A DNA stretch of 63,420 nt, the filler included, from Folioceros fuciformis (lineage: Eukaryota), in the NCBI GenBank assembly GCA_049999805.1. It is 12 parts of 12 records of this genome, joined end to end, with 100 filler letters (N's around TTAATTAATTAA, not from the genome) between each part and the next. Parts side by side here need not be neighbours in the genome. Positions count along the whole stretch, not along the records: positions 1 to 4,036 come from JBNGIO010001863.1; 11 more parts are not named here. The stretch is one strand, 5' to 3'. This document shows, in pieces, positions 1 through 60,908 of this stretch (position 1 is its first letter; each line of letters starts with the position of its first letter). The translations under genes and the position numbers were made by a program. Under the pieces are notes generated by a model. The model saw only the letters and a program-made list of their open reading frames with translations. It was not told where the DNA came from and did not search any database.

Positions 1-680
1 TCCTATAACCCATTGCAAGGAAAGGTAACATCCTATCCCATTCACTTTTATCCATTACTAAGCAATATTTCCTCAAAGTTCTCTTACACGTTTTTACTGT
101 TCTTTTTGCTAAACCATCAGCCTTTGGATGATTTCGAGAAGTAACCCTATGATCAATAAGATATTCGCTTAAAAGTTCATCAAACTCCCCCATAAACTCT
201 GTGCCCTAATCTGTCAAAACTTCAGCACAAGCTCTTAACACACTCAATACATGATTGAGAAATGCCTCCTTGATTACTGCCGCCTTCTTCTCTCTCTTCT
301 TCTCTTAGGGTACCAAAACTATCCACTTTGAGAAATGTTCTATCATTACCAACACATATCTAAATCCTCTACGAGAAACTGGTAACTCTCCAGCCAAATC
401 CAAACTCCATCTATAAAACATTTCCCTAATAGAACGGATGAAGCTGAGAAGTCTTACCTGAAAAACTTCCTTTCACTCTATCACACACTTCACAAGTAGA
501 TACAACCTTCTCTACTACATCCATCATTCCTTTCCAATAATAATTATTCATGAGCAAACTTAACGTTATCTTTGTACCAAAACGCCCTAACTCTTCATGG
601 ATCCTCCATGCCAAACCTATCTTGTCTTCGATTTTAGGCACCTGCTTCATATTTTCCCTAAACAAACAATTTATCATCAA
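1..680 (-). pseudogene. Gypsy integrase (zinc-binding region and core), partial
   Basis: ORF 426-680 RIHEELGRFG...YYWKGM...CEVCDRVK, continuing by manual translation as WSLDLAGELP...IEHFSKWI and TSRNHPKADGLAKRTVK. Confidence 0.88.
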
Positions 681-2210
681 CCCACATGTATCTTCTAGCT
701 CGATTTGTCACTCTATCATTTTCCTTCACGGTCAACATTCTTTTATTTGCCCCCATCATTATACGATCCATTGTATTATGATCCTCCCAAATATCTATTG
801 TTGCCAAAGAATTCACTGAATCTACAAGATTCACTAAATAGGCACTTGGTGTCCACTTAGACACCACTAGATTACACTCCTTACTAACATTTTTATCAAA
901 ATCCTGTATAGAAACCATTGTATCCACCGAACTCCATAGCGGATTCCTTGACAGCACATCTGCATTAGCATGCTTCACTCCTGCTCTATGTTCTATAGAA
1001 AAATTATACTCCTGCAACATGAGCACCCACCTCGCTAACTTGCCTATTAACTTTTCACTTCTCATCAACCACTTCAAAGGCTGATGATCAGGAACTAATT
1101 CAAACTGTGTTCCATACAAATATGGTCTTAAGTGTGACACCGCCCACATTACAGCCAAGCATTCTCCATGACATGACAAATAATTGCTCTTAGTGGTATC
1201 GTTACTCTTGCATGCATAAGCTATCACATGTTCTACACCTGCTTCATCATCCTCCGCGAATACTGCCCCCAATCCAAGTTTTCTCCAATCAGTGTACAAC
1301 TGAAACTTCCTATCAAAATTGGGTCTTTTGAACAACGGTTTAGTCATCAACATACTCTTGATCTCCTCAAACGCCTTTTGTTGATCTTTTCCCCAAACCC
1401 ACACAACTCGTTCTTAAGCAACATTGTCATAGGTCTCACCATCACACTATGATTCGCTACAAAATTGCGATAATAATTTACCAATCCTAGAAAAGACCAT
1501 AAGGTCCCAACATTTGAAGGTGGAGTCATCTTTGCTATTGCTTCCACCTTGACATCACATGGCGCTGTACCTCTAGGAATCATTAAATGACCCAAATATG
1601 CATCCTCTAATGACCCAAATATGCTATCCTAGAGGATGCGAACTTGCACTTCTGTGGATAACAAGTCAACCCCACCTCCATGAGCCTGTCCAACACCAAT
1701 CTAACATGCTCCTTATGCTCCTCCACCTTGCTACTAAAAATTATCACGTCATTAATGTAACACCTTGCAAAAGACAACTCCCTTAATGCATGATCCATCG
1801 CCCTTTGAAAAGCACTAGGTCACCTCATTAAGTGGTCTATAATCTCCACACATCCTTTACTCTGTCCAATTACCATGTACATCTTTCTTTGGTGGAAGCG
1901 CTGTAGCCACTGCATACTCTGAAGACCTAATCAACCCCGCTTCCAACAAACTCTGACACTTCTTGTCAGCTATCTTATTCTCCACCTTGCTCAAACGATA
2001 TGGCCTCCTAAAAACTGGCTCCTTAAGACGAATCTTAAACTTAAACGTCTTGTGTCTACCCAATTCCTCATTAGAAAAAGCAAGCACTTGTCTTCTATCA
2101 TCTAAAATTTTTGCAAAATCTTTGCTATCCTTGACACTGATCTCCTCAGAAATATCCCAACCAAATTCCGCTAACTCTCGTTTCTCACAAATGTTCACAC
2201 CATCAACCAA
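658..2210 (-). pseudogene. Gypsy reverse transcriptase and RNase H, frameshifted and internally deleted
   Basis: ORFs 1857-2210, 1607-1798, 1347-1595 and 658-1404; YIND in place of YxDD, FLGLVNYYRNFV, RNase H motifs. Confidence 0.92.
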
Positions 2211-2399
2211 ACCAGTACTATTTCTAACTTTATGTCCAACTCCGTCATCTTTCCACCCACCTTCATTTGCTTATTCCTATTAAAATCATCATCTCAACTT
2301 CCCTCATCCTCTTGGTCTCCCCCCCCAGTTTATAGCTTAGTGTCCTCAATTGATTAACATGAACCTATTGTTTTCAGCCTTGCCTTCAAAATAAATTTC

Positions 2400-3380
2400 C
2401 ATTTATGCTTCCACTCCTGATAAATCTTTATCGACATCATAAGCCACTTAAGAGTATTCAAATCCATAGCTTGCCCAAGCTTTTTATTTCTCTGATTACA
2501 TGTTATACCCTTTACATAAGTAGAATCTTTTTCAAAGCCCATTGCTCTTTCCCTCTCTATAGGTGATGGGACATCCCATATATTCCTCTTGATATCAAAT
2601 ACCATTCCAGGTCCATCCCCCTTAAATGCATTAGCATTTTTGAAATAAACAAATGTTGGCAATGCCCTTCTAAGCTCACCCTTTTTGTTTACACAATAAA
2701 AAGGTTGCCTATCGTCCAAAACCACCCGTCTGCTCACTCGCCCTTCATCTAAGATCTGATCAATTGTAAGCTCCTCATTCACATGCCAGCAATTTGCATG
2801 TCTCTGTAACAAATGCTTAGGCATCATATTATTCCAAAAATAGTGAAGCTTGTGAGCCCTTAATCCAAACTACACCACATCCAACCTTATGGGTTCCCCC
2901 AAACAATACTTGATCTCCTCAAAATCCTGTCTCAATAGAACCCTTCTGTCCATCTGAGAATCCACATTCTCAATTAAATACCCACATTTCTTCTTTTGAT
3001 GTGTTTGTATAAAATTTAAAATCCTTACTAGCTCATAAAATAGCACAGATCTATAATCCATTAGCCCCTTTCCTTTTCTTATCATCGAGTGTCCCTAGCT
3101 CAATCCGTCACTACAAGATCAATCTCCTCTACCATATGAAATTGTGCTGACCCAATGAGTCCAACATCTTGTGGCCAAGTTGAAAATGACTTTTTTCACA
3201 ACCTCAAGTCTCAACTGCTTTGGGTACTTTCTATACAACTTAAACAATCTAGCCTTTGCAATTGTCTAACAAACCTCATCTGGGTCACAATAAATGTACT
3301 GCTTAACTACATAACCAGCAGCCAGCATAGCCTCCAAACCATATGCAATTCCAGCAAACAACTCAAGCACAACCAATCCA
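2400..3380 (-). pseudogene. C5 cytosine DNA methyltransferase domain (DNMT3-like linear motif order) embedded in the retrotransposon pol; decayed
   Basis: Manual translation: motif I VLELFAGIAYG (3338-3370); II YIYCD; III WPQDV; IV IDLVV..[damaged PC]..GHS (~3085-3125); V GLMDYRSVLFYELVRIL; VI YLIENV (ENV 2963-2971); VIII FGLRAHKLHYFWNN (~2830-2870); IX PIERERAMGF; X LGQAMDLN (~2455-2480). Confidence 0.9.
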
Positions 3381-3698
3381 CATGCAGACAAACTCAAATT
3401 CACAAGTTAATATATTGTACACATGTTCCAATTTACATATTGCCTGCTTTGTACAAGTTTGAATCTTATCATCTAACTGAAACTCAATCAGCCTCTTTTC
3501 TAGTTCTCTAAAAATTCCAATTAATGCTCTATCAACCTCTGCTTTCAACGGATCCTCCTTTTGCTCAACATCACTACATTCTTTAGTACACAACTTTTGC
3601 ATATGACGCGCAACCCACAACTTATCATCCTCATCCTCTTCATCCTACCCTTCTAAAGAAATCGCCATATTTACAACACACGCATCTTGCCCTTCCTC

Positions 3699-4036
3699 CT
3701 ACAACTGTAACTTGAGTGAAATTGTTGCCAAAATCATTCCATCCCCTTGTTGCCAACCTAGACAAAAATAAAACTCCTCTGTCCATGAATCCACACCTCC
3801 TCCTGGCATAAACAGAGCCTCCATATCTAAGATGACATCAAAATTTTCAGACTTGATAATCAAGCACCTCATTTTTATGGTAGTCTTCTCTTCAATTTCA
3901 GGCTTAAAGCACAACTGCAACTTCTCTTTAGTCTCCTCCATCACCGCCTCCAAACCTCCATTAGCCATTCTTATCTTCCACTTGGTCTCCTGTATATCCT
4001 TTCTCCTCAAACCCATTGCATACGTTGTACTAATGT
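3699..4036 (-). pseudogene. Retropepsin-like aspartic protease, C-terminal half
   Basis: KIRMANGG flap-like motif and FDVILD(G) motif; the catalytic D(S/T)G would lie beyond the contig end. Confidence 0.7.
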
Positions 4037-4136
4037 NNNNNNNNNNNNNNNNNNNNNNNNNNNNNNNNNNNNNNNNNNNNTTAATTAATTAANNNNNNNN
4101 NNNNNNNNNNNNNNNNNNNNNNNNNNNNNNNNNNNN
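4037..4136. other. Artificial contig spacer (first of 11)
   Basis: N-run, TTAATTAATTAA (stops in six frames), N-run. Also at 11636-11735, 14214-14313, 19861-19960, 33670-33769, 38914-39013, 44398-44497, 46113-46212, 49011-49110, 51202-51301 and 60809-60908. Confidence 0.99.
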
Positions 4137-4958
4137 TTTACGGCCGGAAGTGGAATATATTGAGGGCAGCCGTATTTCGTTACTGGAACGCCTGGGCACA
4201 AGTGCCTCTACCCTTACTGCTTCGGCTACCGGGGTCGTGGCTTTAGCTACTGGCACCGTACCTCCTCCACCGGTAGCCCCTTCAACTACCTTGGGCGTCG
4301 CGAGACTACCGATAGCCCCCCCGGCTACCGGTTCATGACTACCAATAGCCGCTCCGACTACCGGTTCTGGAACTGGACTACCGGTAGTCCTTTCGGCTAC
4401 CGGCGTCGTCATCTGACCACTACACCCAGCCTTGCCCTTTCCTTTTACTCGCTCTCTGGCCTCGTCCTGCTCTCGTTTGTACCTATCCGCCAGCTTCTGA
4501 GCTTGTTCCATCGCAGCCATCTCCTGCTCCTGGGCCTTGGCCACCTCCTGCTATATTTCCAAATTAGTCTCATGGGCTACCCTCACCTGAGCTAGGAGCG
4601 ACTCCTGTTGCTCCATCAGCGCCTAGATCTCTGCCTTGGCCTAGCGTGCCTCTTCCTCTGCTTGTGCCTTGCCCTCGCTTAGGACCCGCCGCTCTTCTTC
4701 CAGGAACCTTCGTGCCGTTTCAGGCTCCGCCAGCTGTCTCCAAGTTTCGGACTCCTTTCCTCTTGCTTTTGCCTCCCCACTTCGGGCCTCGGCCTCCTTC
4801 TCCGCCTGCCTCCTCAGCCAGGTCAATGCCCTAGCCACCTGGTCCAACACGTCCGCTTGTGCCTACACCATGGCTGAGGTTAGTCGTGGCAAATCCACCT
4901 CCTGCGACTCCATAGGAGCCATTGCCCTCTTGGTTATCTTCCTCCCCAGCACCACTCG
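4137..4958 (-). pseudogene. 3' part of the host element's long ORF (coiled-coil, then low complexity)
   Basis: ORFs 4641-4850 and 4137-4544 are E/A/R/Q-rich and separated by TAG stops; the frame continues from 9124 once the Copia and one TSD copy are removed (..ELEKIRVVLGRKITKRAMAP..). Confidence 0.6.
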
Positions 4959-5142
4959 TGCCGAACCCTGTTCATACTCGTATCAGTGTTTGATATTTCT
5001 AGTCTAGACATTATGAATAGTCATGACGGTTCACACTGTGGCTATTTAAGGCCTACTCTGTAATCACAATGTATCTTGCACTCTAATTTATAAGCTTTGC
5101 TGTTTTGCTCTTACATGGATATCGATCCTACATAGTTTAGCA
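4959..5142 (+). repeat. 5' LTR (184 bp)
   Basis: TGCCGAACCC...GTTTAGCA; no difference from 8940-9123 seen by eye. Confidence 0.97.
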
Positions 5143-5154
5143 TGGTATCAGAGC
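5143..5154 (+). promoter_or_regulatory. Primer binding site (initiator tRNA-Met)
   Basis: TGGTATCAGAGC directly after the 5' LTR. Confidence 0.95.
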
Positions 5155-5863
5155 AGTGAACTGATCCATGTGAGTAAAAACGCTTAACATGCGAATCTAA
5201 CAAGATGACTCCGCTCTCTGAATTCTACTGCGGGATCCGCTGGCATGACCTTGCAATGAGGTTGAAATCTTTGAATCGACAGCTGAGCCATGGAGGAATG
5301 TCCACGTGATCAATTTTTTTTCAAGTGGCAAATCCCCTATAACCCGACTGTCAACCCTGCAATCCACTCGTCACAAAATGGTGCCTGAGGATCTCTGCAC
5401 TGGAGACACCTCCCAATCTGTCAGAGCGAATGCTTGTGCAACAACACTCAGAGATGAAACCTTGTGACTCACACAAAGCAAGGCATGATCAATCATGCCT
5501 TCACGCGAACGACACAAGAGTTGTACACCTACGCCTTCTTCTACTTCCTCTTGGCAACTGTCCGGAAATTCAAGAGAGTTGCACAGCTTGTCCAAGTGAC
5601 TTGCGGTCTTCTCCAAAAGATCAGCACATCTTGCAGGAAGGCTGACTGATCAGGAACGAAATCTCGCAAAATAGCAAAGGGAAAACAACACACCATTGTT
5701 CGATTTTGCATACCTCAACTGATTGGGTTGGAAGGTGTGTCGTTGGCCTGGAAGGCATTCTCCGGGCCTAATTCGCCAAGAAGATTCTGATGTTCAACTT
5801 ATGGCAGGCGTGTTCAAACAGTTGGCACAAGTTGCGGCGGACTGAGAAATATGGTGGTCCACC

Positions 5864-8500
5864 ATGTCCAGCCCACCTTGGGATTCCAGCCCACCAGGCC
5901 ATCATCGGAACCGCAATCCTCGGAACCCACAACCCGGCGGGCGTCGGCCGCTGAGGGGTCGCGGACTCAATAGTCGCCCCGCTTCGCCAGATTCAGAACC
6001 TCCGTTTCCAGAGTACCTCTCGTCAGACTCGGAACCAGGGGGTTCCAGTTCAGACGAAACGGTAACTGACTTAACTGCCAATACCGTTTCGCCACACGAT
6101 ATTTTCTTGGCAACTCGAGCTCCACTTCCTGGACGCTCACCTAGTTCTAGCCCTCTGCGTTCACCAACGAGGCAACACCAACAACATCAGTCAACTATGG
6201 CTGTAAATAATTATACAATTAACAACTTCAAGTATGACTTCAGAGATAAAGACAGATTTAACGGCACTCATTTTGAAGTCTGGCAGCAGAGAGTGAAGGG
6301 CATCCTTGAAGAAATGCAAGTTTGGGAGGTCGTCAATGGTACAGCTCTCAAACCTGCTAATCCTCCAGAAGATGCTGCTGCTTGGGTCGCCAAAGACCTT
6401 AAAGCTCGAAACTTTATTCAATCTGCACTTGACCTGAGTATGATGTCGCATGCTCGGGAGGCCACTTCCTCTAAGGAGATATGGGATTCACTCTGTCAGC
6501 TGCACCAACGAAAGAACGTGTCATCGTTGATACATGCCACACGTGAATTCTTCAATTGTAAAATGAAAGACAATGAAACTGATCATGTAAGTGAAACAGA
6601 ATATGAAGATCCGGAAACTGAACCAAGCTCTCAGGTGGAAGTACCTGTAGCAGAGACTGAGGATGATAACCAACCTGAAGTACCTTTGTCTAAACCCAGG
6701 AGGTCCAGTAGGGTACATACCAAATCCCCGTCTGAGTGGAATCAGGTTCTATACGGCTGGGAAACCAATATGGTCACTTCATCTCATCCCTCTGTGACTC
6801 ATGTCGGTACCCTGAGTAATCATAGAAAGTGCCTTACAGCTGCCCTCATGTCAGCTCAACAGCTTGGTGAGCCGACTACGTTTGCTGAAGCTATGGATTC
6901 ACCTGAAAGACATGAGTGGCAAGCGGCAGTCTTGTCAGAATACACCTCATTGATGGAAAATCATACATGGGATCTGGTTGATCTTCCCAAAGGAAGAAAG
7001 GCACTTACCGGAAAATGGGTCTTCAAGAGAAAACTTAACCCTGATGGGTCAGTTGCTCGCCATAAGGCCAGATACGTCGTACATGGTTACAAACAGATAG
7101 AAGGGTTAGATTATAATGAAACCTTCAGCCTTGTGGTGCGATCATCATCAGTACGCATGCTTCTGGCCATGGCAGCCAAGAGAAGATATGTTGTTCATCA
7201 AATGGACGTGAAGACTGCTTTCTTGCATGGAACCCTTGAAGAAGAAATCTACATAACTCAGCCGGAAGGGTTTGAGGATAAGACCCAACCTCATAAAGTC
7301 TGTCGACTCAGACGAAGCCTCTATGGGCTGAAACAGGCTCCTCGACGATGGTACCAAAGAATGCATGAATTTCTGATCAAATGTGGCTTTGTACAGTCAG
7401 ATGCCGACACCAATGTGTATGTACTCATAGAAGGTTCAGAAATGTCCATTATGGCCTTGTATGTCGATGATACACTCCTGTTTGGACCATCAGAGAAGTC
7501 GTTAGAATGCATTAAAACCATGCTTAAGTCTGAATTTTCTATGACAGATCTTGGGACTCTTACTTTCTTTCTGGGAGTACATATTCATATTGATCTGATT
7601 GCTGGCATAATTTTCCTGCATCAGGCACATTACATTGCACAAATGTTAGAAAGGTTCATGATGACCAAGTGCAAACCTTATGGAACTCCACTTGCAGTGG
7701 GGGAGAAGTTTACTTCAGCAATGTCACCAATAACTGAGGATGAAAAGAAAGAAATGTCACAGAAACCTTACAGCATGGCAGTAGGGTGTCTTATCTGGTT
7801 AAGTGGTTGGTCTAGGCCAGACCTAGCCCCGGCAGCTCGAATCTTCTCGAAATTCCTCTCTAATCCTGGCATACAACATTGGCATGGATTACAGAGGACG
7901 ATCAGATATCTGAAAGGTACCACCTCATTGGGTCTCCAGTATACAAGAGCTGACTCACCTTTAACCTTGGTATGCTACACTGATTCAGATTGGGCAGCAG
8001 ATGAGGACTCTCGTAAGTCAGTTACTGCAAACTGCTCTGTTCTCTCAGGAGGTGTGGTTAGTTGGTCTAGCAAGTCTCATACCGTAGTAGCACTGTCTTC
8101 AACAGAGGCAGAATACACTGCTGCAACTGCAGCAGCTCAGGAGACAATATACAACAGAAGATTCCTTGGGTCAGTAGGCTGTACTCAAGAGGAACCAACT
8201 CAGATTTGGTGTGACAATCAATCAGCCATAGCCTTGGCTTACAATCCCGTACATCATGCTAGAACGAGACATCTCGATGTGAAACAACATTATATTCGAC
8301 AAGCGGTTACCAGTAAGCAAGTTACCTTGGGGTATATCTCGACTGAGCATAACTTGGCTGACCTGTTTACAAAGCCGTTGCCCAAGGACAAACATCAACA
8401 ACTCTGCTACCAGTTAGGACTTCGAGACCCTCCTAACATGAAGGGCATCAAAGAAATCAAGGAAGTCAGTATCGTGAGGAGAGGGAGCAACATGCAGTAA
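5864..8500 (+). CDS. Copia polyprotein derivative: partial Gag fused in frame to RT and RNase H (878 aa)
   Basis: Gag DRFNGTHFEVWQQRV...KEIWDSL; RT KWVFKRK, QMDVKTAFLHG, SLYGLKQAPR, YVDD; RNase H DSDWA, SSTEAEY, CDNQSA, ADLFTK. No CCHC knuckle, protease or integrase motifs. Confidence 0.93.
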   Translation: MSSPPWDSSPPGHHRNRNPRNPQPGGRRPLRGRGLNSRPASPDSEPPFPEYLSSDSEPGGSSSDETVTDLTANTVSPHDIFLATRAPLPGRSPSSSPLRSPTRQHQQHQSTMAVNNYTINNFKYDFRDKDRFNGTHFEVWQQRVKGILEEMQVWEVVNGTALKPANPPEDAAAWVAKDLKARNFIQSALDLSMMSHAREATSSKEIWDSLCQLHQRKNVSSLIHATREFFNCKMKDNETDHVSETEYEDPETEPSSQVEVPVAETEDDNQPEVPLSKPRRSSRVHTKSPSEWNQVLYGWETNMVTSSHPSVTHVGTLSNHRKCLTAALMSAQQLGEPTTFAEAMDSPERHEWQAAVLSEYTSLMENHTWDLVDLPKGRKALTGKWVFKRKLNPDGSVARHKARYVVHGYKQIEGLDYNETFSLVVRSSSVRMLLAMAAKRRYVVHQMDVKTAFLHGTLEEEIYITQPEGFEDKTQPHKVCRLRRSLYGLKQAPRRWYQRMHEFLIKCGFVQSDADTNVYVLIEGSEMSIMALYVDDTLLFGPSEKSLECIKTMLKSEFSMTDLGTLTFFLGVHIHIDLIAGIIFLHQAHYIAQMLERFMMTKCKPYGTPLAVGEKFTSAMSPITEDEKKEMSQKPYSMAVGCLIWLSGWSRPDLAPAARIFSKFLSNPGIQHWHGLQRTIRYLKGTTSLGLQYTRADSPLTLVCYTDSDWAADEDSRKSVTANCSVLSGGVVSWSSKSHTVVALSSTEAEYTAATAAAQETIYNRRFLGSVGCTQEEPTQIWCDNQSAIALAYNPVHHARTRHLDVKQHYIRQAVTSKQVTLGYISTEHNLADLFTKPLPKDKHQQLCYQLGLRDPPNMKGIKEIKEVSIVRRGSNMQ

Positions 8501-11153: not shown

Positions 11154-11987
11154 GGTCCTAGACCAAGCAGGCACAGACCACAAGAGCTCAAGAAGAGAGG
11201 ACCTCCAAGAGCTCACAAAGAGATAGACTGGCTCCCAAAAGTGAATGACTCCCTCCTCCTACAGGCTCACCTGATCTTATAGGAGCCTCTCTCTCTCTCT
11301 GACTTCACCTCTCTCTAACTTGAGAAATATTATTTTAATAGCCTATCCGGCTGTCACCAGCCACTTATTTAGACTTCTAGCACAACCTGCCACCAATGAG
11401 CTCCTGGCCCTACCACCACAAGGATCTACCACCTCTTAGACTATCCTGAGACTTCAGAGGATGTCTGATCTTCAAAGGTCTGCGGACGCCGCCTCTTCCT
11501 TGCTGGATGGTCGCCCGCTAAGTCTTCCCCTGCAACTGTTCACCTTGGTGGCTGAGCCAGCCTCTAGGGGAGGAGCATGCGCAATGGGAAAGGTAGAGAA
11601 GAGGTGGGAAGGAGTGGGATCAGCAGCCGGAACCTNNNNNNNNNNNNNNNNNNNNNNNNNNNNNNNNNNNNNNNNNNNNTTAATTAATTAANNNNNNNNN
11701 NNNNNNNNNNNNNNNNNNNNNNNNNNNNNNNNNNNATATATATATATATATATATCACCATTCTTAGAACCTTGATACTCAGGGCCTTACTTACAAGAGG
11801 GTGGAATATTATATTACTTGCAAACTATTCTTTCAAATCTTCTATGATAAAATATTTTTTTTAAATAATAATAATAATAACTTGAAGTGATTGGTACACT
11901 ATTTAAATTTAAAAAAAAAATGAAACTTGTATAAATTCAACTTTTTGTCCAAGTAGGAGGGTCTTGCATTCATTGTCTTGAGTTCAT

Positions 11988-12518
11988 ATGGCTTTATTTT
12001 TCTTCTTTGTTTTATTCTTACCTTTAATCATGCAAATAGAAAGTAGAATATTAATGCAAAGTAATACCTTACATGAGACACAATTTGATTTTGGTTGGAT
12101 TTTCAATCAAGGTTCACATCATTTAGAAATGTTGGAACAAGGAAAGTCACTTCGTTATGGTGAATCTCTTGTTGTAGGGGACTACATTTTTGGGCCGAAT
12201 ATTGATTGTGTGCTCGTATTACAAACTAAATCTGACCCAGAAGATCCAATCTGGACATCATTTCCAAAGGTAACTACAACTTGGAGAGATGGTTGCAAAG
12301 TCACTCTACAAGAAGATGGAAATTTGCTTCTCTCAACCTCGACAATTAGCCAAGTTTGGGCCTCACAAAGCGGGACAGGAAACACTGAAGATTTTACCTA
12401 TCAACTTCGAATAATAGAAATCGATGCTTTCGCGTATCTTGTCATAGACTCCATTAATATTGCAACCCAACAAGTTCAACATATATGGTCTTCTAAAAAC
12501 TATAAAGAATTAAATTAA
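11988..12518 (+). CDS. Secreted bulb-type (GNA/B-) lectin domain protein
   Basis: Hydrophobic N-terminus MALFFFFVLFLPLI; LEQGKSL..GESL; CVLVL..PIWTS; CKVTLQEDGNLLL..VWASQS; intronless. Confidence 0.75.
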   Translation: MALFFFFVLFLPLIMQIESRILMQSNTLHETQFDFGWIFNQGSHHLEMLEQGKSLRYGESLVVGDYIFGPNIDCVLVLQTKSDPEDPIWTSFPKVTTTWRDGCKVTLQEDGNLLLSTSTISQVWASQSGTGNTEDFTYQLRIIEIDAFAYLVIDSINIATQQVQHIWSSKNYKELN

Positions 12519-13039
12519 TTATTCACACATTATATATTTGATTCAAAAACAAGATCACGGATTAATTATGTCATATGAGAAATGTCTTTTGATTAAAAGG
12601 TATTGTATTTGGTGTATCATTCAAAATCTTGCAAATATGTTCACATGAAATCAAAATGGTAGTTGAATTTTCATTGAACTTAAATGTGTTTTAAATTTTT
12701 GTTAAATATGTCTCATTTTACAATTGAATGTAACATAAATAAGATTTGCATATATTTGCTTTTAATTTGGTAGGATTGCATGATTTCTTAGTAAGAAGAT
12801 TCCTTTGACTTACCGTAAAAAATAGTTAGATATTTTTGTATTTTAGGCTAAAAGGCCATTAGGTAGAAACCATAATAGAATGATGTCAGAGAATAATATG
12901 AGTTAGTTTTTTATGGTGAACCGTCATTCTCTATTATTTTATTTTATTTTACCTCACTTTTCGTCAACTCCACAAGGTGGTCTCTAACTTGTTTAAAGCC
13001 AGATGAAATCTCTTATCAAATGAACGCATCCATAAACGG

Positions 13040-14213
13040 GTATCAAGTAGATATATATTCTGAAGAACATATCACAAAGTTATTATATCCATAACAAAGA
13101 CAATGAGGGCAATTCTGAAAGCCATTGGTGACGACAATGATAAATGAAAATATAAGACATTTACTTGTAGCGCGGGAACCAACAACAATAGAGTGGAGCT
13201 AGCATACTATAACACAAACCCTTTGAATCTAGTAACAAAGAGTTAGCACGTAAGGAGGGCATACCTTATACTAATATGGTAGCCATAATTGAAGCAACAA
13301 AGTACAAAGTATCTTACATGGGATGCACATATCAGAAAAGTGGATGAGTCTTAATTTGGAAAATGTTTTCTTGAAGAGATTACAAAGGAGCATTCGTAAG
13401 GATTCAAAGGGGCACTCCTACTACTTTGAATGATAGCCGTAAGAAGTGTGAAAGCATTGCGGATTTAGCGTCATTGTCTTTCCATAAAAATGTATATGCT
13501 GCTCTCAGCTTCCAAGCGTGTGAAACCCAATTCCATTAGTAAGGCATGAAACACTTCATTCCACGCACGAGAGGATTGTTCAAGGCCATAAATTGTTTTT
13601 AAAAGTTTACAGACTTTGTTAGGCTCTTTAACATATCCTTCTGGTTAAGCCATGTAAATATCCTCATCTAAGGTACCACTGAGGAAGCAGTTTTAACATC
13701 TAACTGATGTACTAGAAGCTTGTGGTGTACAACTAAGGCTAGGAGTATTCTTATGGATGTAGACTTGACAACTGGGGCAAACGTCTCGTTGTAATCTAGC
13801 CTAGCTATTTGACTATATCCTTTTGCCACAAGGCGAGCCTTATGTCTACCTACACTACCATCAATGTTGAGTTTCTTCTGAAAGACCCATTTACAAGCAA
13901 CTGGTTTACGACCAGGAGGGACATATACTAAAACCCAAGTCTTGTTGCTAATAAGAGATTGATTCTTAGACTCAATGGCCTTTTGCCAAAATGAGGCTTC
14001 ATGCTCTTCAATAGCTTCTCTATAGGTGGCAGGTTCACCTCACAATTCTACACTACTAAGAACATGGTCAAGTGGAAAATGATGTTCCTCTACAACAATG
14101 CTAGCAACATAGGGAGGTTCTTTCCACTCTGACCTAGGAGGTCGATGCCTTGTAGAATAACATAAGGCTTGAGGTGGCTCTTCATTGGCTTCAATGACTT
14201 CATCCTGTGGAAG
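13040..14213 (-). mobile_element. Degenerate Copia reverse transcriptase remnant
   Basis: Manual translation KTWVLVYVPPGRKPVACKWVFQKKLNIDGSVGRHKARLVAKGYSQ..DYNETFAPVVK..HQLDVK, with many stops and frameshifts. Confidence 0.88.
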
Positions 14214-26300: not shown

Positions 26301-28915
26301 TGCACACAGCTTCTTCGTGAGATATTTTCAATTTATCTCATTTGCACGTACTCATCATTCCCCTAGCCACTGGGCAGCACAATTGAGGGCACATCAGCAC
26401 ATTTGCATAATCCCATGCACAGCACCGATGCGCGTACCAGGTAGCTGATGGGAAAATGTGCAATTTTCCCAAAACGCCCATTTATACGTCCCACAATTTC
26501 GTGAACCTGGCTTGCCAGACGTTGATCTGCAAGACAGTATCTAAGGTGAGGACAAGCAGACAAGATCCCTATGAACCTTTGAAATTCTTTTCCTGTCTGT
26601 TAGTTGTGATGTAAGCATGCACCCCTGCCACTGCTGAAAGCGATCAATTTGTACCCTTTACTAAATTACAACTCAAAGCGAAGTACATCGTCTTACATTC
26701 ATGGACATCAGTCCTTGTTGGTACGGCAATTTGAACAAGCAACACCTTGTCCCGCCACTCCTTATTGTCCTCCAGAAATTGTTCATATGCTAGGAGCTTC
26801 TGGGGAATCCCCTTTATCATATCCAGCCTGTCAACGCCCAACATTACCTGACACCGAAGCTCGACAACTTAGTGGTGAGACAGTGCACATCCCAAAGAAC
26901 TCCAGAGTCAGAGGCAAACAATCTGACATTCATCACTAAAAGCCCCATGACCAACAGCTGGTAGCCAAGGTAGTCTTGACAAAACATAGTGCACAATATG
27001 TTCCAGTGATTCCTGCATTCTCGAACAAGGTAGTTACCTTCTTCCCAGCAAATCGGGCCTGCAAATCCCTGATGTTGGATTTCACTTCCTCTGTCTCGAG
27101 AGCTTGGATGAACCTTTGAGGATCGATCCCGATGGGAAACTGCAAAAGCCATTCTCGCCAGTTCTTAGGATACCCATCAGCACTTCATCGGAAGGGCGAA
27201 AAGAGAGGATTCCGCAAAGCATAAACATCACTGCCAAGAGAAATTAATGGATAAAGAGGTCATACCGCTGCAACCCTTGTGAGTCTGCCTTGATCTTCCA
27301 CACCCTCCGGGGTTCCCTCCAGTCCAAGAATGCGAGTGCAAGCACTGACAAAATGCCTAGCATAGTCGTAGGTGTGGAATCTGCAGCCATAACGGACTCC
27401 TATGACAGTGAGACCACAAAATCCTAGAAGCCGCAGCATTGAGAGAAGTAGATCAGAAGAGGTAGCACCTACCCAATCAAGTCAGCCGTCAATACTGCTT
27501 TGAGCAATTCGGAGCGTAAGGGGAGAGTCCGATAAATCTCAGACGACGGAAAAGGAGTATGAAGAAACCACCCAACTTTCATGTGATTATTGAGCTGCTT
27601 CAGACACTTAGGGAGGAACATAAGGTGATAGTCATGGCACCAAACTATATCTCCCTCCTGGTATTGGGAGAAGACAACGTTTGCGAACTGCTTGTTGGCC
27701 CGGAAATAGGCATCAAACTGGGACTGCAAACTGTGCGTGGCAGCGAGCCTGTCCTCCTGCGGAAGGCCAATGTAGTGGAACAATGGCCATAGTACGTTGT
27801 TACAATATCCATTGTAGTACTGATCCAGAGTCTCTTCATCCAGGAAGACAGGAATGAAACCCTGCACGCACAATGAGATGAGCACACGCCCAGAGAAAAA
27901 CAAAAGCCTGGGAAGCCGCCTCCTAAACTGCAATTCAGCGCCCGACAGACAGAAAGACAAAAAAAATGCTTGTTCCATGAGAGAAACAGAATGCGAAGCA
28001 GCGCGTCTCTACCTTTTCCTCCAAAGCGGACGACAGCTCCTTCCGTCCGTCCTCGTCAGGGACGTAGACGCCCGGCCAACCAATCCACCTGGTTTCGAAA
28101 TTCTGCCTAACACCTTCATCAAACAAACGGAAATCTATGAGTACAGCAAGGCAGCGCTGCGATCCAGCAGCAACAGGCAGGGTCAGGACCACGAGCGAGA
28201 GCGCGGGGCAGTTACGGGACAGATAAGGAAAACAGCAGGCAGTACCAAGAAGAGCGCTGACAAGGCCACCGGCGCTGAGCTCCAGGGACCACGAGTTGTC
28301 TGGATTCCTGATCGCAGACACGGGCAACCTGTTGGCAACCACGATCAGGCGTTGGGTTGGTTCGGCAGACGGCAGCTGCTGCTGCTGATTTTGGGTGCCA
28401 TTCTCCTTTCCGAGCTCGCCTCCCTCCAAGTTGTCCAACCCCTTCCAGTAGTCGACACCCGTGGCCTCCTCCTTCCCGGCGACGGCGCCGGCACCGGCAC
28501 CGGCGGCGACGTCCCCCACCTGTCGGACCCAGAAAGGCTCGTTGGCGCCCACCCTGCTCTCGCAATCCTCGAGATCCTTGTACCGGCCGCCGCTCCTGCG
28601 CAGTTCCCTGTCGCGCAGCAGCCTGGTAATCCGCGACGGATTCACGGTGTTGTGGCTTCCCTTGAGCGCGGCCGTGAGGTCACGCACCACATCATCCGTG
28701 AGGGACGAGGTCCTAGGCAGCGGCAGCGCGGGTGTGTGCTGATCCAGCTCTCCTGAGCCGGAGAAGGAGAAGCGGCGGGTTAGGCCCGACACCGGTCCTG
28801 GGCCTGGGCCCGGGCCGGGCCCCGGCACCGGCCCCGGCCCTGCCGCGGCCTCCTCTCCCTCCCATTCCCTTCCACGCTGCTGCGCGCTGCTGCGAATGTT
28901 CAAAGGGTACGGCAT
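23387..28915 (-). CDS. TPS1: Class I trehalose-6-phosphate synthase (TPS plus degenerate TPP domain), multi-exon
   Basis: [131 protein letters not shown] (MPYPL) at 28915. Confidence 0.96.
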
Positions 28916-30484
28916 ACACGCTGTCGGGTACAAGCAGGACAGAAATCACAAAGTGCGGGGCGGAGCGGGCCGCGACGGAGGCTGCGGGGCTGTGCTACCC
29001 TGCCAGCTCGCTCTCGCAGGCACGCAACTGTTTCACAACAAACATGGCACGCGCCCAACCATTCCCTTCCTCCTCCCTTTCGCCGGATCGCTCCACCTCA
29101 CTAGTCCTCTTCTGCCGGCCAGCGCGCGCACGCACTCTCTCTCACACACAAACACACACACACACAAGCCACAATTTGACTCCACCCCACTCGATTCGAC
29201 TCCACAGAATTCACACAGGGCCCCCCAATTCCTCCGCCTCCTCCCGATTCCTGGCACCCTCCCCGGCAAAGCTGCAGGTGGGGCGGCAGAGCGGGTACTA
29301 TACCCGGCCGGGCCGACAGAGGGCGGAATTGCACATGTCAAACGCAGCCGGACGGGAAGCCCAGACCCAGGCTCCGGCTCCGCACCCAGCCGGCCACCCC
29401 GGTGGGCGCCAGAGGCAGAGGCAGAGGCGCCTCGTCCGCCGGCGCCGTCTGTTGCCACCCGCACCGCTCACGCACCATGCCACACCTCTCCTCCGCTTGC
29501 TCCCTTACACTCCCGCACCAGGCACCAGGCCAGGAAAGGAAGAGCCCAACGAAAGGGGCCCCTCTCCCCCTAAAAAAAGGAAAAAAAAAAAAAATCGAAT
29601 TGTCACGAAGCTGGTGCAAACAGGAGCGGCAGAAGGCCTGTTCTCGAGACAGACAGACAGACAGACAAGCAGCAGGAAGAAGAAGAAGAGAGGAAGGTGG
29701 AGACCGGAAATCTCTTCGGTGTTCCGCTCCCACCAGACTCAGGGAGAGCAGCAGCGCGAGTGCAGGGAAGCGGGGAGCCGAGGGGCGCATAAATATGCGC
29801 ACAGGAGCTGTGGAGAGTGCAGAGACAGAGGCAGAATAGAAGGAGCGGCAATGGGGGCACGGAGCTGCAGGCTGCAGCAGGAAGAGGAAGGGGAAGAGGC
29901 AGAGGAGGAGGAAGTGGAGAAGGCGCAGCAGGAGGAGGCGGGAGACAGCTGGGCCAGATTCCCAAGAGAGTGGTTGCCGTTCCTTATTTCTTCTCCACTC
30001 TATTCTACTCCACTCCACCCCACCCCTCTTCCTTCTTCTTCCCGCCTTTTACCCTTTCCCTTTTTTTTTATCCGCATCCCTTTTTTTCTCCTTTCTCTCT
30101 CCCTGAAGCCGGAGGCCTCGAGACGAGGGCATGGACTAGGACTGCCTGAGAGCCTGAGCCTGTGCCTGATGAGCCTGTGCCTGTGCCTGTACAGGCGTGT
30201 GCCGAAACCCGAGCCTGAGCTGGAGCTCGCTCAGGCCCTGGAGGTGCGGTGCGTGCACTTTCTTTTCGCTTTCGGCTTTCGGCTTGCGGCTTTCAGCTTT
30301 CCTCTTGGACGTTGACGAGCTCGCCTAACATCCCTTCACCAGCTCAGCTCTCTTGTTCCCCGCCGCGTCACTGTAAGTTCAGTCACATCCCTTCCTTCCC
30401 TTGTAAAAAGGCAGGGGATAGTCTAGAACTGGGAGTGGCAGTGGCATCCTTCTCTTCCAGTGATTCTCTCCTCTATTCTCTTCT

Positions 30485-34290: not shown

Positions 34291-35788
34291 ATGGCACGCA
34301 GGGGCAACGCTGTGGTGTTTGAGAAATGTGTTGCCTTTGTGTTACTGCTGATCAGTGCAAGCAGTAGTGCGCTTGGTTCCCCACTTTTTCCCGCCTGTTT
34401 TGTGTTTGGAGATTCTCTGGTGGACCCAGGGAACAACAATTTCCTGCCCCTCTCGCTCTCCAAGGCTAGCTTTCCCTACAATGGAATGGATTTTCCAGGG
34501 GGCCAGCCTACAGGCCGTTTTTGTAATGGCCGCACTGTCGTGGATGTGCTATGTGAGATTACTTTGTGGTGATTGCAGTAACCTCCATTGGTGTAGGCGC
34601 TCTAGCAGAAAGAAAGGTTTTTTACTTTGTGTGGTGTGCCTTGAACTTGCAGCCCAGCTCATTGGTTTCCAGAATTTTTTGCCTGCATACCTGAACCCTA
34701 CAACTACGGGAGCCCAGCTGCTGCAAGGCGTGAACTATGCATCAGGTGCTGGAGGGATTCTCAACTCCACTGGAGCAAATTTTGTGAGTTATCTTGTGCA
34801 AGTTGGGTTTGTGCATGTCGTTTCCGGAATGTTTTGGGAACTGACGACGTTGATGCCTGTCTTCAGATCCAACGTCTTTCGTTGGAATCTCAGATGCTAT
34901 ACTTTGAGGAAACTCTGGCCAGGATCAGAGCTCTGGTCGGAAGCCCAAAGCAGGAGCAGCTTGTGCGACGGGCCCTGTTTGTGGTGGTGATAGGAAGCAA
35001 TGACTACGTCAACAACTACTTGCTGAGTGACAGTGCCACTAAGGCTGAATACCCAGATAGTCAAGACTACCGTCGGCTTCTTATCACATCCTTCCATGCC
35101 CATCTCACCGTAAGTGGCTTCCCAAAGCCCGTAGCAGTAACGTACCTACCCCCATATCTGTGCCGCTTCTGAAGCTTTAGTTCACACTTGCAGAAGCTGT
35201 ATAGCTTGGGAGCGCGGAAGGTGGTGGTAACCGGGATCGGGCCACTCGGTTGCATACCACAGCAGCTGGCCACCAAATACGTCCTGAGCGGTCAGGCTGC
35301 ACCACTTGGCGAGCCTTGCATCAGCACGGTCAATAAGATGGTGACGGACTACAATTCCGCCCTGCAGGCCATGTTGACAGCTCTGAACGCCCAGCTACTC
35401 GACGTAACATTTGTGTACGCAGACTCTTATAATACCGTGCTACGCATAGTCCAAGACCCTGCATCCTATGGTACTTTCGTCTACCCGCGTGGCTCTAAGT
35501 AGTCAAGTTCAGGCTCTCACGGTGCAGGGCAGAAATGACAGGTGTCGTCTTGTTTGAATAGGCTTGCAAGTCATCAACCGGGGATGCTGTGGAGGAGGCC
35601 CTTTGAACGGAGTCCTTCCCTGCGACCAGTACTTGGGTGCCAGCTTGTGCGATGAGCGATCCAAGTTCCTATTCTGGGACGCCTTCCATCCCTCAGACGC
35701 TGCCAATGTTATCATGGCCACGGGCTTGTTCAATGGCACCGGCCAAGATGTGAGACCCATCAATGTCCGGCAGCTTGCTCGCGTGTGA
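34291..35788 (+). CDS. GDSL esterase/lipase 1 (5 exons)
   Basis: Signal peptide; FVFGDSLVDPGNN; TGRFCNG; GVNYASG; IGSNDY; GPLGCIP; FWDAFHPS. Confidence 0.95.
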
Positions 35789-41162: not shown

Positions 41163-41520
41163 GAAGTTGTCAGCTGGTAGTGCATGTTGTATCATCACAA
41201 GATGTAAGAACAGGTCTATGGATTGATCATCATCCAACTTCGGTCTAGAGACGAAAGCAACTTCACATCAGCCTGGAGAGGAAAGCACCTCCTCATCAGT
41301 CTGGAGAGGAAAGCAGCTCGCTCAATGGGCAATACAGGCATGAACCACAGTGTAGGGGTAACAAACTCGAGAGACAACCCACAACAAAATAACGCACTCG
41401 ACAGAGAAGAACACATATACTACACATAACTGTAAATGGAGAAGTTGTCCGCTGGTAGTGCATGTTGTGTCATCACAAGACTTAAGAACAAGTCTATGAG
41501 ATCATCATCCTCCAACTTCG
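41163..41520. repeat. ~80-bp direct repeat pair (41163-41242 and 41441-41520)
   Basis: GAAGTTGTC.GCTGGTAGTGCATGTTGT.TCATCACAAGA..TAAGAACA.GTCTATG...CCAACTTCG occurs twice. Confidence 0.85.
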
Positions 41521-60802: not shown

Positions 60803-60908
60803 CTGCAGNNNNNNNNNNNNNNNNNNNNNNNNNNNNNNNNNNNNNNNNNNNNTTAATTAATTAANNNNNNNNNNNNNNNNNNNNNNNNNNNNNNNNNNNN
60901 NNNNNNNN

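What the first reader, a model, noticed from the sequence alone, without database searches (positions are those of the whole stretch)
2400..3380. Ty3/Gypsy retrotransposon carrying its own cytosine DNA methyltransferase between protease and RT
Seen: C5-MTase motifs I, II, III, IV, V, VI, VIII, IX and X are collinear and intronless on the pol strand (VLELFAGIAYG; GLMDYRSVLFYELVRIL; YLIENV; RAHKLHYFW; ERERAMGF; LGQAMD). They sit between the protease (3699-4036) and RT (starting ~2210) and are decayed like the rest of pol. The ORF track splits the domain and misses motif I. Established: plant DRMs have permuted motifs (VI-X before I-V), so this linear order is not a captured DRM2. DNMT-bearing retrotransposons were reported in dinoflagellates and the charophyte Klebsormidium (de Mendoza et al. 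2018, cited from memory); I do not recall a characterised land-plant family. Inference: the MTase is a polyprotein product packaged with RT/IN that could methylate new cDNA or alter host methylation.
Basis: partly seen in the sequence, partly recalled or inferred. Interest (0 to 1): 0.92.

Follow-up and report, generated by a model that had tools for sequence, protein, structure and literature searches.

The report
Decayed Gypsy retrotransposon carrying Dnmt3 methyltransferase
A broken copy of a jumping gene that once encoded its own DNA cytosine methyltransferase sits on a 4-kb contig; this kind of element is already known from streptophyte algae, but here it belongs to a little-described branch that also left a relic in the liverwort Marchantia.

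Summary
On the minus strand of 2357-3406 lies a Dnmt3-like C5-methyltransferase (MT) domain with collinear motifs. It sits between a protease remnant (4031-3738) and RT/RNase H/integrase (2168-2).

The window is 12 contigs joined by spacers, and this element is all of contig 1 (1-4036). There is no gag, no LTR and no link to host DNA.

The copy is dead:
- four in-frame stops in the MT domain;
- a probable compensated frameshift pair that removes the catalytic Cys codon;
- both motif VIII arginines replaced;
- at least seven frame changes along pol.

It is not a one-off. Hundreds of diverged contigs in the holding sequencing runs cover all of it, the MT region included. 33 database proteins share the order PR-MT-RT-RH-IN. 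Those with an organism name are Closterium spp. and one Marchantia polymorpha relic.

Intact relatives keep the catalytic residues, show dN/dS of 0.13, and fold like DNMT3A/B. In two of them MT is in a Gag-PR-MT frame ahead of a single UAG.

The kind is known (KnitGypsy-Dnmt3, de Mendoza 2018). The host is a streptophyte, but a land plant is not shown. Verdict: new member of a known kind, moderate interest.

The parts
1..4036 (-). Contig 1 of the window: an internal pol fragment of a Gypsy-Dnmt3 element (PR-MT-RT-RH-IN), cut at both ends. No gag and no LTR.
   Evidence: Spacers N44-TTAATTAATTAA-N44 delimit 12 contigs. The contig is collinear by tblastn with intact relatives P0273, P0018 and P0169. 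GC is 0.392. The coding strand is C 11% and G 28%.
3738..4031 (-). C-terminal part of the aspartic protease; the contig end cuts off the rest.
   Evidence: tblastn: P0257 residues 780-877, 37% identity, E 6e-16; P0253 792-882, 38%, E 1.5e-15. Those residues overlap Pfam Asp_protease_2 / gag-asp_proteas in P0257 (763-852) and P0253 (768-857). Pfam on the window piece itself gives no family at E<=1.
3407..3737 (-). PR-MT linker, decayed: a frame change between PR (frame -3) and MT (frame -1), with stops.
   Evidence: Frames of the tblastn segments. Eight stops lie in the MT frame upstream of residue 99.
2357..3406 (-). Dnmt3-like C5 cytosine methyltransferase domain (350 codons), motifs I to X collinear, 4 in-frame stops, inactive.
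   Evidence: Motif I reads ELFAGIA, VI IENV, VIII RAHKLHYFWNN (both Arg replaced), IX ERERAMGF, X LGQAMD. The last two are the commonest forms in type B (14/30 and 12/30).
3100..3197 (-). Stretch of the MT domain that is out of the nominal frame; it ends at the destroyed motif IV (catalytic Cys codon lost, Gln codon now TAG).
   Evidence: With a profile built without the window, only the frame offset by 1 matches here (hmm positions 73-102, score 6.6, E 4.5e-4 among 3 frames); the nominal frame gives no hit. Other copies lack one letter at 3197 (table 4). At motif IV the window reads SDGLSXGHS where relatives read AGW(P/E)CQGHS.
1407..2168 (-). Reverse transcriptase, in three different frames with 1 stop.
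   Evidence: RVT_1 8.4e-13 on 1607-1819. tblastn to P0273 and P0018 gives 2168-1818 in frame -3, 1819-1610 in frame -1 (47-56% identity) and 1607-1407 in frame -3.
661..1401 (-). RNase H / tether region, an intact 251-codon open frame (658-1413).
   Evidence: RT_RNaseH 3.4e-31 and RT_RNaseH_2 1.5e-26. Used for the backbone tree.
2..707 (-). Integrase: H2C2 zinc-binding domain (about 707-432) and rve core (430-2, 2 stops). It runs off the contig end, so any C-terminal PHD finger cannot be seen.
   Evidence: Integrase_H2C2 2.3e-11, 44.1 bits. rve 4.8e-10, 40 bits, on the read-through with X at stops. 57-59% identity to P0273 and P0018.
4037..4136 (.). Artificial spacer between contig 1 and contig 2; not biology.

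Best explanation
Contig 1 is an old, dead copy of a multi-copy Ty3/Gypsy LTR retrotransposon family. Its polyprotein carries a Dnmt3-derived cytosine-5 DNA methyltransferase between protease and reverse transcriptase. I call this order, PR-MT-RT-RH-IN, 'type B'.

Shown here:
- the domain order;
- the Dnmt3-type fold and sequence;
- membership of the type-B clade;
- multi-copy status in the source sample;
- inactivity of this copy.

Shown for intact relatives, not for this genome:
- the catalytic residues are conserved;
- the domain is under purifying selection;
- in two metagenomic elements the MT is the C-terminal part of a Gag-PR-MT frame, separated by one in-frame UAG from RT-RH-IN-PHD.

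Inferred: in active elements the protease releases the MT inside the particle or cytoplasm in Gag-like amounts. It then methylates the element's own new cDNA, or chromatin at the insertion site. This would let the new copy enter the genome already marked, as camouflage, copy-number restraint or protection from deamination. These roles were proposed by de Mendoza et al. 2018.
For: Domain identity:
- PDB phmmer: DNMT3A 2.2e-6.
- Profile against PDB: DNMT3A 5e-25, DNMT3B/C about 1e-22, DRM 1e-17 to 1e-13, M.HhaI and DNMT2 about 1e-9.
- The AF2 model of an intact relative's domain (L001; pLDDT 94.2, pTM 0.92) best matches DNMT3B/3A/3C chains (E 5e-20, TM 0.69/0.80-0.83).

Architecture:
- tblastn of fetched proteins on contig 1 gives 33 proteins in type-B order, 113 in the other order (type A: RT-RH-MT-IN-PHD), and 52 with MT but undetermined order (first set).
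- Intact P0018 reads zf-CCHC, PR, MT, RVT, RH, IN. P0273 reads PR, MT, RVT, RH, IN, PHD.

Clade:
- In the MT tree (170 rows, FastTree) the window lies in a starred (97) set of 41 rows. These are all 29 type-B rows, 11 rows of unknown order, and the window.
- In the RNase H tree (48 rows, IQ-TREE) it lies in a 14-row group with no type-A or MT-less row: 8 type-B rows, 5 rows too short to type, and the window. Support is 81/87. The group includes Marchantia polymorpha Mp_1g20900.

Family trait:
- At >=80% likeness, 422, 361 and 374 contigs of runs X1, X2 and X3 lie on contig 1, in all 30 bins.
- Diverged pieces lie across 2379-2934, 2942-3042 and 3150-3366.

Relatives look functional:
- Motif IV Cys in 29/30 type B and 105/107 type A. 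Motif VI Glu in 30/30 type B. Both motif VIII Arg in 30/30 type B.
- dN/dS between L001 and L003: MT 0.128, RT-RH-IN 0.059.
- PF00145 is above its cut-off in relatives (for example 51.1 bits against 22 for L001 ORF1).

This copy is dead.
Against: - The window's own MT read-through does not reach any Pfam family.
- The best database identity is only 36-39%.
- No gag, LTR, primer-binding site or target-site duplication is on the contig, so 'LTR retrotransposon' rests on pol homology.
- No intact copy from this organism was seen. The runs could only be laid, not fetched.
- Contig 1 is not linked to host genes and differs in GC and strand skew.
- The type-B grouping in the RNase H tree is only 81/87, and the MT tree is FastTree only.
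- dN/dS comes from one pair with saturated dS (1.2-1.4).
- No Klebsormidium sequence was available for comparison.
- No methylation activity of any Gypsy-Dnmt3 has been shown. The yeast test of the K. nitens domain was inconclusive (PMC5890265).
Confidence: 0.85

Rival explanations
1. The element is real, but contig 1 comes from another organism in the sample (for example an alga living on or with the plant-like host). It would then say nothing about the host of the other eleven contigs.
For: - Contig 1 has GC 0.39 and GC skew -0.43, while 10 of the other 11 contigs have GC 0.46-0.53.
- No host sequence is on the contig.
- Of the 30 relatives' clusters looked up for names, only 7 carry an organism name, and all 7 are the alga Closterium.
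- The window is a set of short unlinked contigs.
Against: - The family is present as hundreds of diverged contigs in three runs of the sample. That is easier to get from the main genome than from a minor contaminant.
- A type-B relic lies on a 30.6-Mb record (the longest contig listed for that protein) of the land plant Marchantia polymorpha, so a plant host is plausible.
- TEs often differ in composition from genes.
Confidence: 0.18
2. The MT domain of this lineage is a non-catalytic pseudo-enzyme family-wide, acting as a structural or nucleic-acid-binding module.
For:
- In type B the Pro of the classical motif IV Pro-Cys is often Glu: AGWECQG in 14 of the 28 type-B rows shown.
- The yeast assay of the K. 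nitens domain gave no methylation (PMC5890265).
Against: - Catalytic Cys in 29/30, ENV Glu in 30/30 and both motif VIII Arg in 30/30 type-B rows. The motif I Phe and Gly are kept in 27/30 and 28/30.
- dN/dS is 0.13.
- The confident DNMT3-like model includes the target-recognition part.
- The authors called the yeast result inconclusive, because human DNMT3B also failed.
Confidence: 0.1
3. A one-off event: a host DNMT3 fragment inserted or transduced into a single Gypsy copy, or a chimeric assembly.
For: Only one copy is in the window. The contig is short.
Against: - The same order PR-MT-RT-RH-IN occurs in 33 independent database proteins.
- Diverged copies in the runs cover the MT region and its borders.
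- Logan contigs of X1 and X2 match across 1527-2422 and 3245-4036 with 0 differences (table 8).
- The window's MT is nested in the type-B clade.
Confidence: 0.02
4. The stops and the C-poor coding strand are an artefact of chemically converted (bisulfite-type) reads entering the assembly.
For: - One run of the same sample (X3) shows G>A at 303 places against A>G at 23.
- The coding strand has C 11% against G 28%.
- At least two of the four stops sit where relatives have Gln.
Against: - Runs X1 and X2 hold 92% and 78% of the contig's words. Their differences are symmetrical (C>T 234 / T>C 208; G>A 131 / A>G 130).
- The remaining coding-strand C are mostly CHH (324 of 450), and CpG o/e is low (0.39) rather than enriched.
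- Frameshifts and Arg>Lys/His changes cannot come from C conversion.
- The other contigs have ordinary composition.
Confidence: 0.03

Closest known systems
KnitGypsy-Dnmt3 of Klebsormidium nitens (de Mendoza et al. 2018, PMC5890265; abstract, passages and Discussion read)
   Same: A non-rearranged Dnmt3-type DNMT without introns inside the Pol polyprotein of an LTR Gypsy element of a streptophyte. The key residues are conserved and Ka/Ks is below 0.2 in intact copies, like the type-B relatives here.
   Different: - The position of the DNMT within Pol of the K. nitens element is given only in a figure I could not see, so I cannot say whether it is type A or type B.
- No K. nitens sequence was compared.
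- Its DIRS-like repeat layout cannot be checked on a 4-kb fragment.
- The window copy is dead.
- Supplements were closed.
Type-B elements of Closterium spp. and of metagenome contigs (P0007, P0160, P0106, P0012, P0025, P0080, P0091, P0064; L001, L003; P0018, P0273), and the Marchantia polymorpha relic Mp_1g20900 (P0216)
   Same: - Same order PR-MT-RT-RH-IN.
- Same MT clade (97).
- Same RNase H group (81/87).
- Same motif IX and X variants.
   Different: - Only 31-39% identity in MT (FastTree note) and up to 57-59% in RT and IN.
- Those relatives (except Mp_1g20900) are open frames; the window is riddled with stops and frameshifts.
- None of these elements appears to be described in print. Searches found none.
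Type-A Gypsy elements, RT-RH-MT-IN-PHD (for example P0004, P0006, P0015; mostly unnamed metagenome proteins; a Pleodorina starrii protein at 24%)
   Same: Related Dnmt3-like MT domain with the same motif set. A PHD finger at the end of integrase is also seen in type-B P0273 and L001.
   Different: - MT lies between RNase H and integrase.
- The RNase H backbone forms a separate clade (100/99).
- Motif X and motif I variants differ.
Canonical DNMT3A/3B/3C and plant DRM2
   Same: Best sequence and fold matches are DNMT3 catalytic domains, with collinear motifs I-X.
   Different: - No PWWP or ADD domains.
- Embedded in pol.
- Only 21-23% identity to human DNMT3 in the structural alignment.
- DRM matches only through its permuted half, so this is not a DRM capture.
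SymbioDIRS-Dnmt3 / SymbioLINE-Dnmt (dinoflagellates) and EpiLTRs of Cymbomonas and Euglena (bioRxiv 10.64898/2026.05.21.726589; passages read)
   Same: Retrotransposons that captured a cytosine DNMT. For SymbioDIRS the domain is Dnmt3-type and was shown to methylate CG de novo in yeast.
   Different: - Different backbones (DIRS, LINE, chromovirus-like).
- The EpiLTR DNMT is sister to DNMT4 and sits at the 3' end of pol, together with an adenine methylase.

Membership tests
C5 cytosine DNA methyltransferase, Dnmt3 class | Motifs I, IV, VI, VIII, IX and X in collinear (non-permuted) order | tested here: met
   Collinear alignment to DNMT3A over query 110-324 and 376-427. The profile matches DNMT3A in three collinear stretches. 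DRM matches only its permuted half.
C5 cytosine DNA methyltransferase, Dnmt3 class | Catalytic Cys of motif IV (Pro-Cys) | tested here: not met
   The window reads SDGLSXGHS where relatives read AGW(P/E)CQGHS. The Cys codon is lost and the Gln is a stop. Relatives: Cys in 29/30 type B and 105/107 type A. The copy fails this feature; the family meets it.
C5 cytosine DNA methyltransferase, Dnmt3 class | Motif VI Glu-Asn-Val and motif VIII Arg-x-Arg | tested here: inconclusive
   ENV is present in the window (IENV). Both motif VIII Arg are replaced (RAHKLHYFWNN). Relatives keep them in 30/30.
C5 cytosine DNA methyltransferase, Dnmt3 class | Reaches the curated Pfam PF00145 score | tested here: not met
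   Window read-through: 0 families. Best piece: 11.6 bits against 22. Intact relatives pass: P0005 45.5, P0273 47.9, L001 ORF1 51.1 bits.
C5 cytosine DNA methyltransferase, Dnmt3 class | Closer to Dnmt3 than to other DNMT classes | tested here: met
   Profile E-values: DNMT3A 5e-25, DRM 1e-17, HhaI and DNMT2 1e-9. The Foldseek matches listed (ranks 1-50) are all DNMT3A/B/C entries. No tree with canonical DNMT1/3/4/5/6 was built, because no such sequences were at hand.
Ty3/Gypsy LTR retrotransposon | pol order PR, RT, RNase H, IN, with Gypsy-type RT_RNaseH and H2C2-rve integrase | tested here: met
   The MT domain is inserted between PR and RT.
Ty3/Gypsy LTR retrotransposon | Long terminal repeats, gag, primer-binding site, target-site duplication | not testable with these tools
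   Contig 1 ends inside PR and inside IN. The longer Logan contigs could not be fetched. L001 and L003 have a gag-length N-terminus but no terminal repeats within the contigs.
Streptophyte Gypsy-Dnmt3 elements (KnitGypsy-Dnmt3) | Intronless Dnmt3-type DNMT inside Pol of a Gypsy element in a streptophyte genome | tested here: inconclusive
   The domain and backbone are met (above). Other contigs of the window carry streptophyte genes, but contig 1 is not linked to them.
Streptophyte Gypsy-Dnmt3 elements (KnitGypsy-Dnmt3) | Sequence kinship with the K. nitens elements; DIRS-like repeat layout | not tested
   No K. nitens sequence was returned by any search. The figure and supplements were not available.
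Type-B (PR-MT-RT-RH-IN) lineage defined here | MT upstream of RT, and MT and RNase H each grouping with other type-B elements | tested here: met
   97, FastTree; 81/87, IQ-TREE; moderate.

The most novel reading that the evidence does not exclude
Type-B Gypsy-Dnmt3 elements are an old, streptophyte-wide lineage. They make a de novo methyltransferase in Gag-like amounts: the Gag-PR-MT frame comes first, and RT-RH-IN-PHD is reached only by read-through of a UAG in a CAR-YYA context.

The lineage crossed into land plants. It left a relic on a Marchantia polymorpha chromosome-scale record. If the host here is an embryophyte such as a hornwort-grade lineage, it also left a high-copy family that the host now keeps methylated at CG and CHG.

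Land-plant genomes would then have been exposed to transposon-encoded Dnmt3 activity. No paper found here reports that.
Probability: 0.3. Interest if true: 0.7.

Novelty: new member of a known kind. Interest (0 to 1): 0.45.

Why it matters
Cytosine methylation is the host's main weapon against transposons, so transposons that carry their own de novo methyltransferase are a rare inversion of the arms race. So far they are documented in print for dinoflagellates, one charophyte and a few protists.

This work adds four things:
- Such elements come in at least two architectures with related MT domains.
- The PR-MT-RT form occurs in Closterium, in many environmental contigs and as a relic in the liverwort Marchantia.
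- Intact members keep catalytic residues under purifying selection.
- In two intact members the MT sits in the abundant Gag-PR frame, ahead of a single in-frame UAG.

These naturally intact elements are ready material for testing whether a retrotransposon methylates its own cDNA. The window copy itself is a fossil and has no function.

Tried and rejected
- **Whole-genome search.** No genome is held for this window, so intact copies, LTRs and copy number in the organism could not be sought.
- **Other copies in the window.** tblastn of the read-through and blastn of contig 1 against the window found none.
- **RNA evidence.** No RNA holder is listed for contig 1. Run X4 (guessed RNA) laid 0 contigs. 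Neither says anything about expression.
- **Pfam on the window.** The PR piece and most MT pieces gave nothing.
- **Metagenome loci from alignment A1.** I used the single protein P0251 instead.
- **Terminal repeats in L001 and L003.** None found.
- **First RNase H tree.** The filter was too strict and left 17 rows; I discarded it.
- **Rfam on the window.** Only one snoRNA was found, which gives no help on taxonomy.
- **Earlier notes of this scan.** Nothing was found for this genome or sequence.
- **Strand-specific C-to-T hypermutation.** I considered it as the cause of the C-poor coding strand and left it open. Differences among copies in X1 are symmetrical. Intact relatives show only a mild skew (C 18-24%, G 25-28%). 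They are too distant to polarise changes.
- **Host placement by tree.** I rejected it: without an algal orthologue, a hornwort and an outgroup alga attach to the same branch. Only distances are reported.
- **ESM Atlas.** The nearest cluster is PF00145-bearing and 'commonest Streptophyta'. This is a lead only.
Full report
**What the window is.** The 63,420 bases are 12 separate contigs joined by N44-TTAATTAATTAA-N44 spacers. The finding lies on contig 1, which is only 1-4036. The proline- and glycine-rich frame beyond 4137 and the Ty1/copia frame at 5846-8500 belong to contig 2 and are not part of this element. No whole genome is held for the window.

**Observation.**
- Pfam does not recognise the window's own sequence. 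The 476-residue read-through gave no family at E<=1. Of ten separate pieces, only 2870-3094 gave PF00145, at E=0.19, below the cut-off.
- Other searches leave no doubt. PDB sequences gave 26 hits, 25 of them DNMT3A/B/C catalytic domains (best 2.2e-6).
- An exhaustive phmmer of 1.84 billion representatives gave 712 hits at E<=1e-3, 381 at <=1e-10 and 84 at <=1e-30, though the best is only 36% identical.
- A 15-row profile led by the window scored DNMT3A 5e-25, DNMT3B/C about 1e-22, DRM 1e-17 to 1e-13, and M.HhaI and DNMT2 about 1e-9. DRM matched only through its permuted half.

**Surroundings.**
- Upstream, 4031-3738 aligns (33-38% identity, E down to 6e-16) to the part of intact relatives that Pfam calls an aspartyl protease.
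- Downstream come RT (RVT_1 8.4e-13), RNase H (RT_RNaseH 3.4e-31, an intact 251-codon frame) and integrase (Integrase_H2C2 44.1 bits; rve 40 bits on the read-through).
- The order PR-MT-RT-RH-IN is therefore real.

**State of this copy.**
- The tblastn segments change frame at least seven times between PR and IN. They carry four stops in MT, one in RT and two in IN.
- Inside MT, a profile built without the window matches only the frame offset by one between about 3197 and 3100. The nominal frame gives no hit there.
- Other copies in the runs lack one letter at 3197 (table 4).
- The stretch ends at motif IV, where relatives read AGW(P/E)CQGHS and the window reads SDGLSXGHS. The catalytic Cys codon is gone and the Gln codon is TAG.
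- Both arginines of motif VIII are replaced.
- This is a fossil.

**Is the domain a family trait?**
- Contig 1 is held by three runs of one sample. X1 holds 92% of its words, X2 78% and X3 6%.
- Laid at >=80% likeness, 422 contigs of X1 lie on it: 34 at >=99%, 23 at 95-99%, 99 at 90-95% and 266 below 90%. X2 gave 361 and X3 374.
- These lie in all 30 bins, with diverged pieces across the MT region.
- The family is therefore multi-copy and diverged, and its other copies carry the domain.

**Relatives and architectures.**
- I compared the fetched proteins with contig 1 by tblastn. 113 have MT between RNase H and integrase (type A). 33 have it after PR and/or before RT, like the window (type B). 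52 could not be ordered (first set).
- Pfam on 12 relatives confirmed this. In ten, integrase plus a PHD finger lie downstream of the MT match.
- For type B, P0018 reads zf-CCHC, PR, MT, RVT, RH, IN. P0273 reads PR, MT, RVT, RH, IN, PHD.
- In a FastTree of 170 MT domains the window falls in a starred (97) set of 41 rows. These are all 29 type-B rows, 11 of unknown order, and the window.
- In an IQ-TREE of 48 RNase H regions it falls in a 14-row group with no type-A or MT-less row: 8 type-B rows, 5 rows too short to type, and the window. Support is moderate (81/87). This group is apart from type A (100/99) and from animal Gypsy elements (97/91).
- Of 30 clusters looked up, 7 carry an organism name, all Closterium spp. 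and all type B.

**A relic in a land plant.** A protein returned by the RNase H search, Marchantia polymorpha Mp_1g20900 (612 aa), is listed with a longest contig of 30.6 Mb. It holds the N-terminal half of a type-B MT domain, including the motif I (FGG) and motif IV (WPC) regions (local profile E 2e-34), directly followed by RT and RNase H. In the RNase H tree it sits with the metagenomic elements L001 and L003 (99/93). A type-B relic therefore exists in a land plant.

**Do intact relatives look functional?**
- Two metagenome contigs (L001 of 9,317 nt, L003 of 8,399 nt) carry open type-B elements.
- In L001, ORF1 (976-5082) contains PR and PF00145 (51.1 bits). One in-frame TAG follows. ORF2 (5086-8226) has RVT, RNase H, integrase and PHD.
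- The stop is followed by CAG TTA in L001 and CAA TCA in L003. This fits the UAG-CAR-YYA leaky-stop context of plant viruses. That motif is recalled from memory and comes from no call.
- Between L001 and L003, dN/dS is 0.128 for MT, 0.059 for ORF2 and 0.20 upstream, with saturated dS.
- Across type B the motif IV Cys is kept in 29/30, the motif VI Glu in 30/30 and both motif VIII Arg in 30/30. Type A keeps the Cys in 105/107.
- An AlphaFold2 model of the L001 domain (pLDDT 94.2, pTM 0.92) is closest to DNMT3B, 3A and 3C (E 5e-20, TM 0.69/0.80-0.83).

**Mechanism.**
- Shown: the architecture, the conservation and the fold.
- Inferred: in active elements the MT is made with Gag and PR and is freed by PR. 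It then acts on the element's nucleic acid, most likely the new cDNA, or on chromatin at the integration site. In some members a PHD finger on the integrase sits alongside.
- The possible pay-offs come from the Discussion of de Mendoza et al. 2018: self-marking to avoid recognition as foreign DNA, protection from deaminases, and self-restraint.
- None of this was tested here. Their yeast assay was inconclusive for the K. nitens domain.

**Host.**
- Other contigs carry intron-containing plant-type genes: trehalose-phosphate synthase, GDSL lipases, PP1 and a legume-type lectin. I named these by eye.
- A 980-residue exon (57867-60806, minus strand) is 42% identical to liverwort orthologues, 40% to a moss and 37-38% to a lycophyte and conifers. 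Marchantia against moss is itself 44%.
- The host is thus a streptophyte about as far from liverworts as mosses are. A hornwort-grade embryophyte and a zygnematophyte-grade alga both fit.
- Contig 1 is not linked to these genes and differs in composition (GC 0.39; coding strand C 11%, G 28%). A second organism cannot be excluded.

**Comparison with what is known.**
- Gypsy-Dnmt3 elements were described in Klebsormidium nitens (PMC5890265).
- A 2026 preprint refers to them as 'streptophytes (Gypsy-DNMT3)' (10.64898/2026.05.21.726589).
- A 2025 paper mentions DNMT3 members inside retrotransposons of streptophytes and dinoflagellates (PMC12344493).
- Five full-text searches turned up no report of such an element in a land plant or in Closterium, and none of the PR-MT-RT order.
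- The K. nitens domain order is given only in a figure, and supplements were closed, so type B may or may not be the published architecture.

**Verdict.**
- The thing is a dead member of a known kind of element.
- The surrounding family (type B, its spread to Closterium and Marchantia, and the Gag-PR-MT frame ahead of a UAG) is the part worth following up.

Noticed in passing
window 1-4036, against run X3: Run X3, from the same sample as X1 and X2, differs from contig 1 by G>A at 303 places against A>G at 23. X1 shows 131 against 130. All 30 of the 30 listed G>A places are CHH cytosines on the coding strand, where 72% (324 of 450) would be expected. X3 behaves like a bisulfite- or enzyme-converted library. 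The pattern suggests that the family is methylated at CG and CHG but not at CHH. Only the 30 best-supported rows were visible.
   Followed up: partly
window 1-4036: The strand asymmetry is extreme. The coding strand has C 11% and G 28%, and the third codon position in MT has C 7%. Intact relatives L001 and L003 show only C 18-24% and G 25-28%. Differences among copies in X1 are symmetrical. The cause is unexplained.
   Followed up: partly
L001 5083-5091; L003 4661-4669: A single in-frame TAG separates Gag-PR-MT from RT-RH-IN-PHD. It is followed by CAG TTA in L001 and CAA TCA in L003. This matches the UAG-CAR-YYA read-through context known from plant viruses (recalled from memory). Other type-B proteins (P0018, P0273) are one continuous frame.
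   Followed up: partly
P0216 (Marchantia polymorpha Mp_1g20900): This annotated 'hypothetical protein', listed with a longest contig of 30.6 Mb, is a relic of a type-B element. It holds the N-terminal half of the Dnmt3-like domain with the Pro-Cys motif, then RT and RNase H.
   Followed up: partly
database proteins P0004, P0006, P0015, P0021, P0024, P0047 and others: A much larger set (113 of the fetched proteins) has RT-RH-MT-IN-PHD. Some carry an extra G-patch (P0024) or a Tudor domain (P0047). Almost all come from unnamed metagenome contigs. One distant member is from the green alga Pleodorina starrii. Here 105 of 107 type-A rows keep the Cys.
   Followed up: partly
window 5846-8500 (+) and 60997-63141 (-): Two Ty1/copia pol frames lie on contigs 2 and 12. 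The first (884 aa) runs from a gag-like N-terminus straight into RT and RNase H, so it may lack protease and integrase. The second (714 aa) has the integrase end, RT and RNase H. Both were named by eye.
   Followed up: no
window 27469-28945 (-), 34352-38152 (+), 43756-44445 (-), 51580-52474 (+), 57864-60808 (-), 41164-41240 (-): Host-type genes with short introns: trehalose-phosphate synthase, several GDSL lipase-like exons, a legume-type lectin domain, a PP1 phosphatase and a 980-residue exon of a large conserved plant protein. These were named by eye except the last, which rests. There is also a SNORD33-family snoRNA (46 bits).
   Followed up: partly
window 11736-14213 (contig 3): Besides contig 1, this is the only AT-rich contig (GC 0.34). 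It has a 178-codon frame that looks like a bulb-type lectin (by eye). Its origin was not examined.
   Followed up: no
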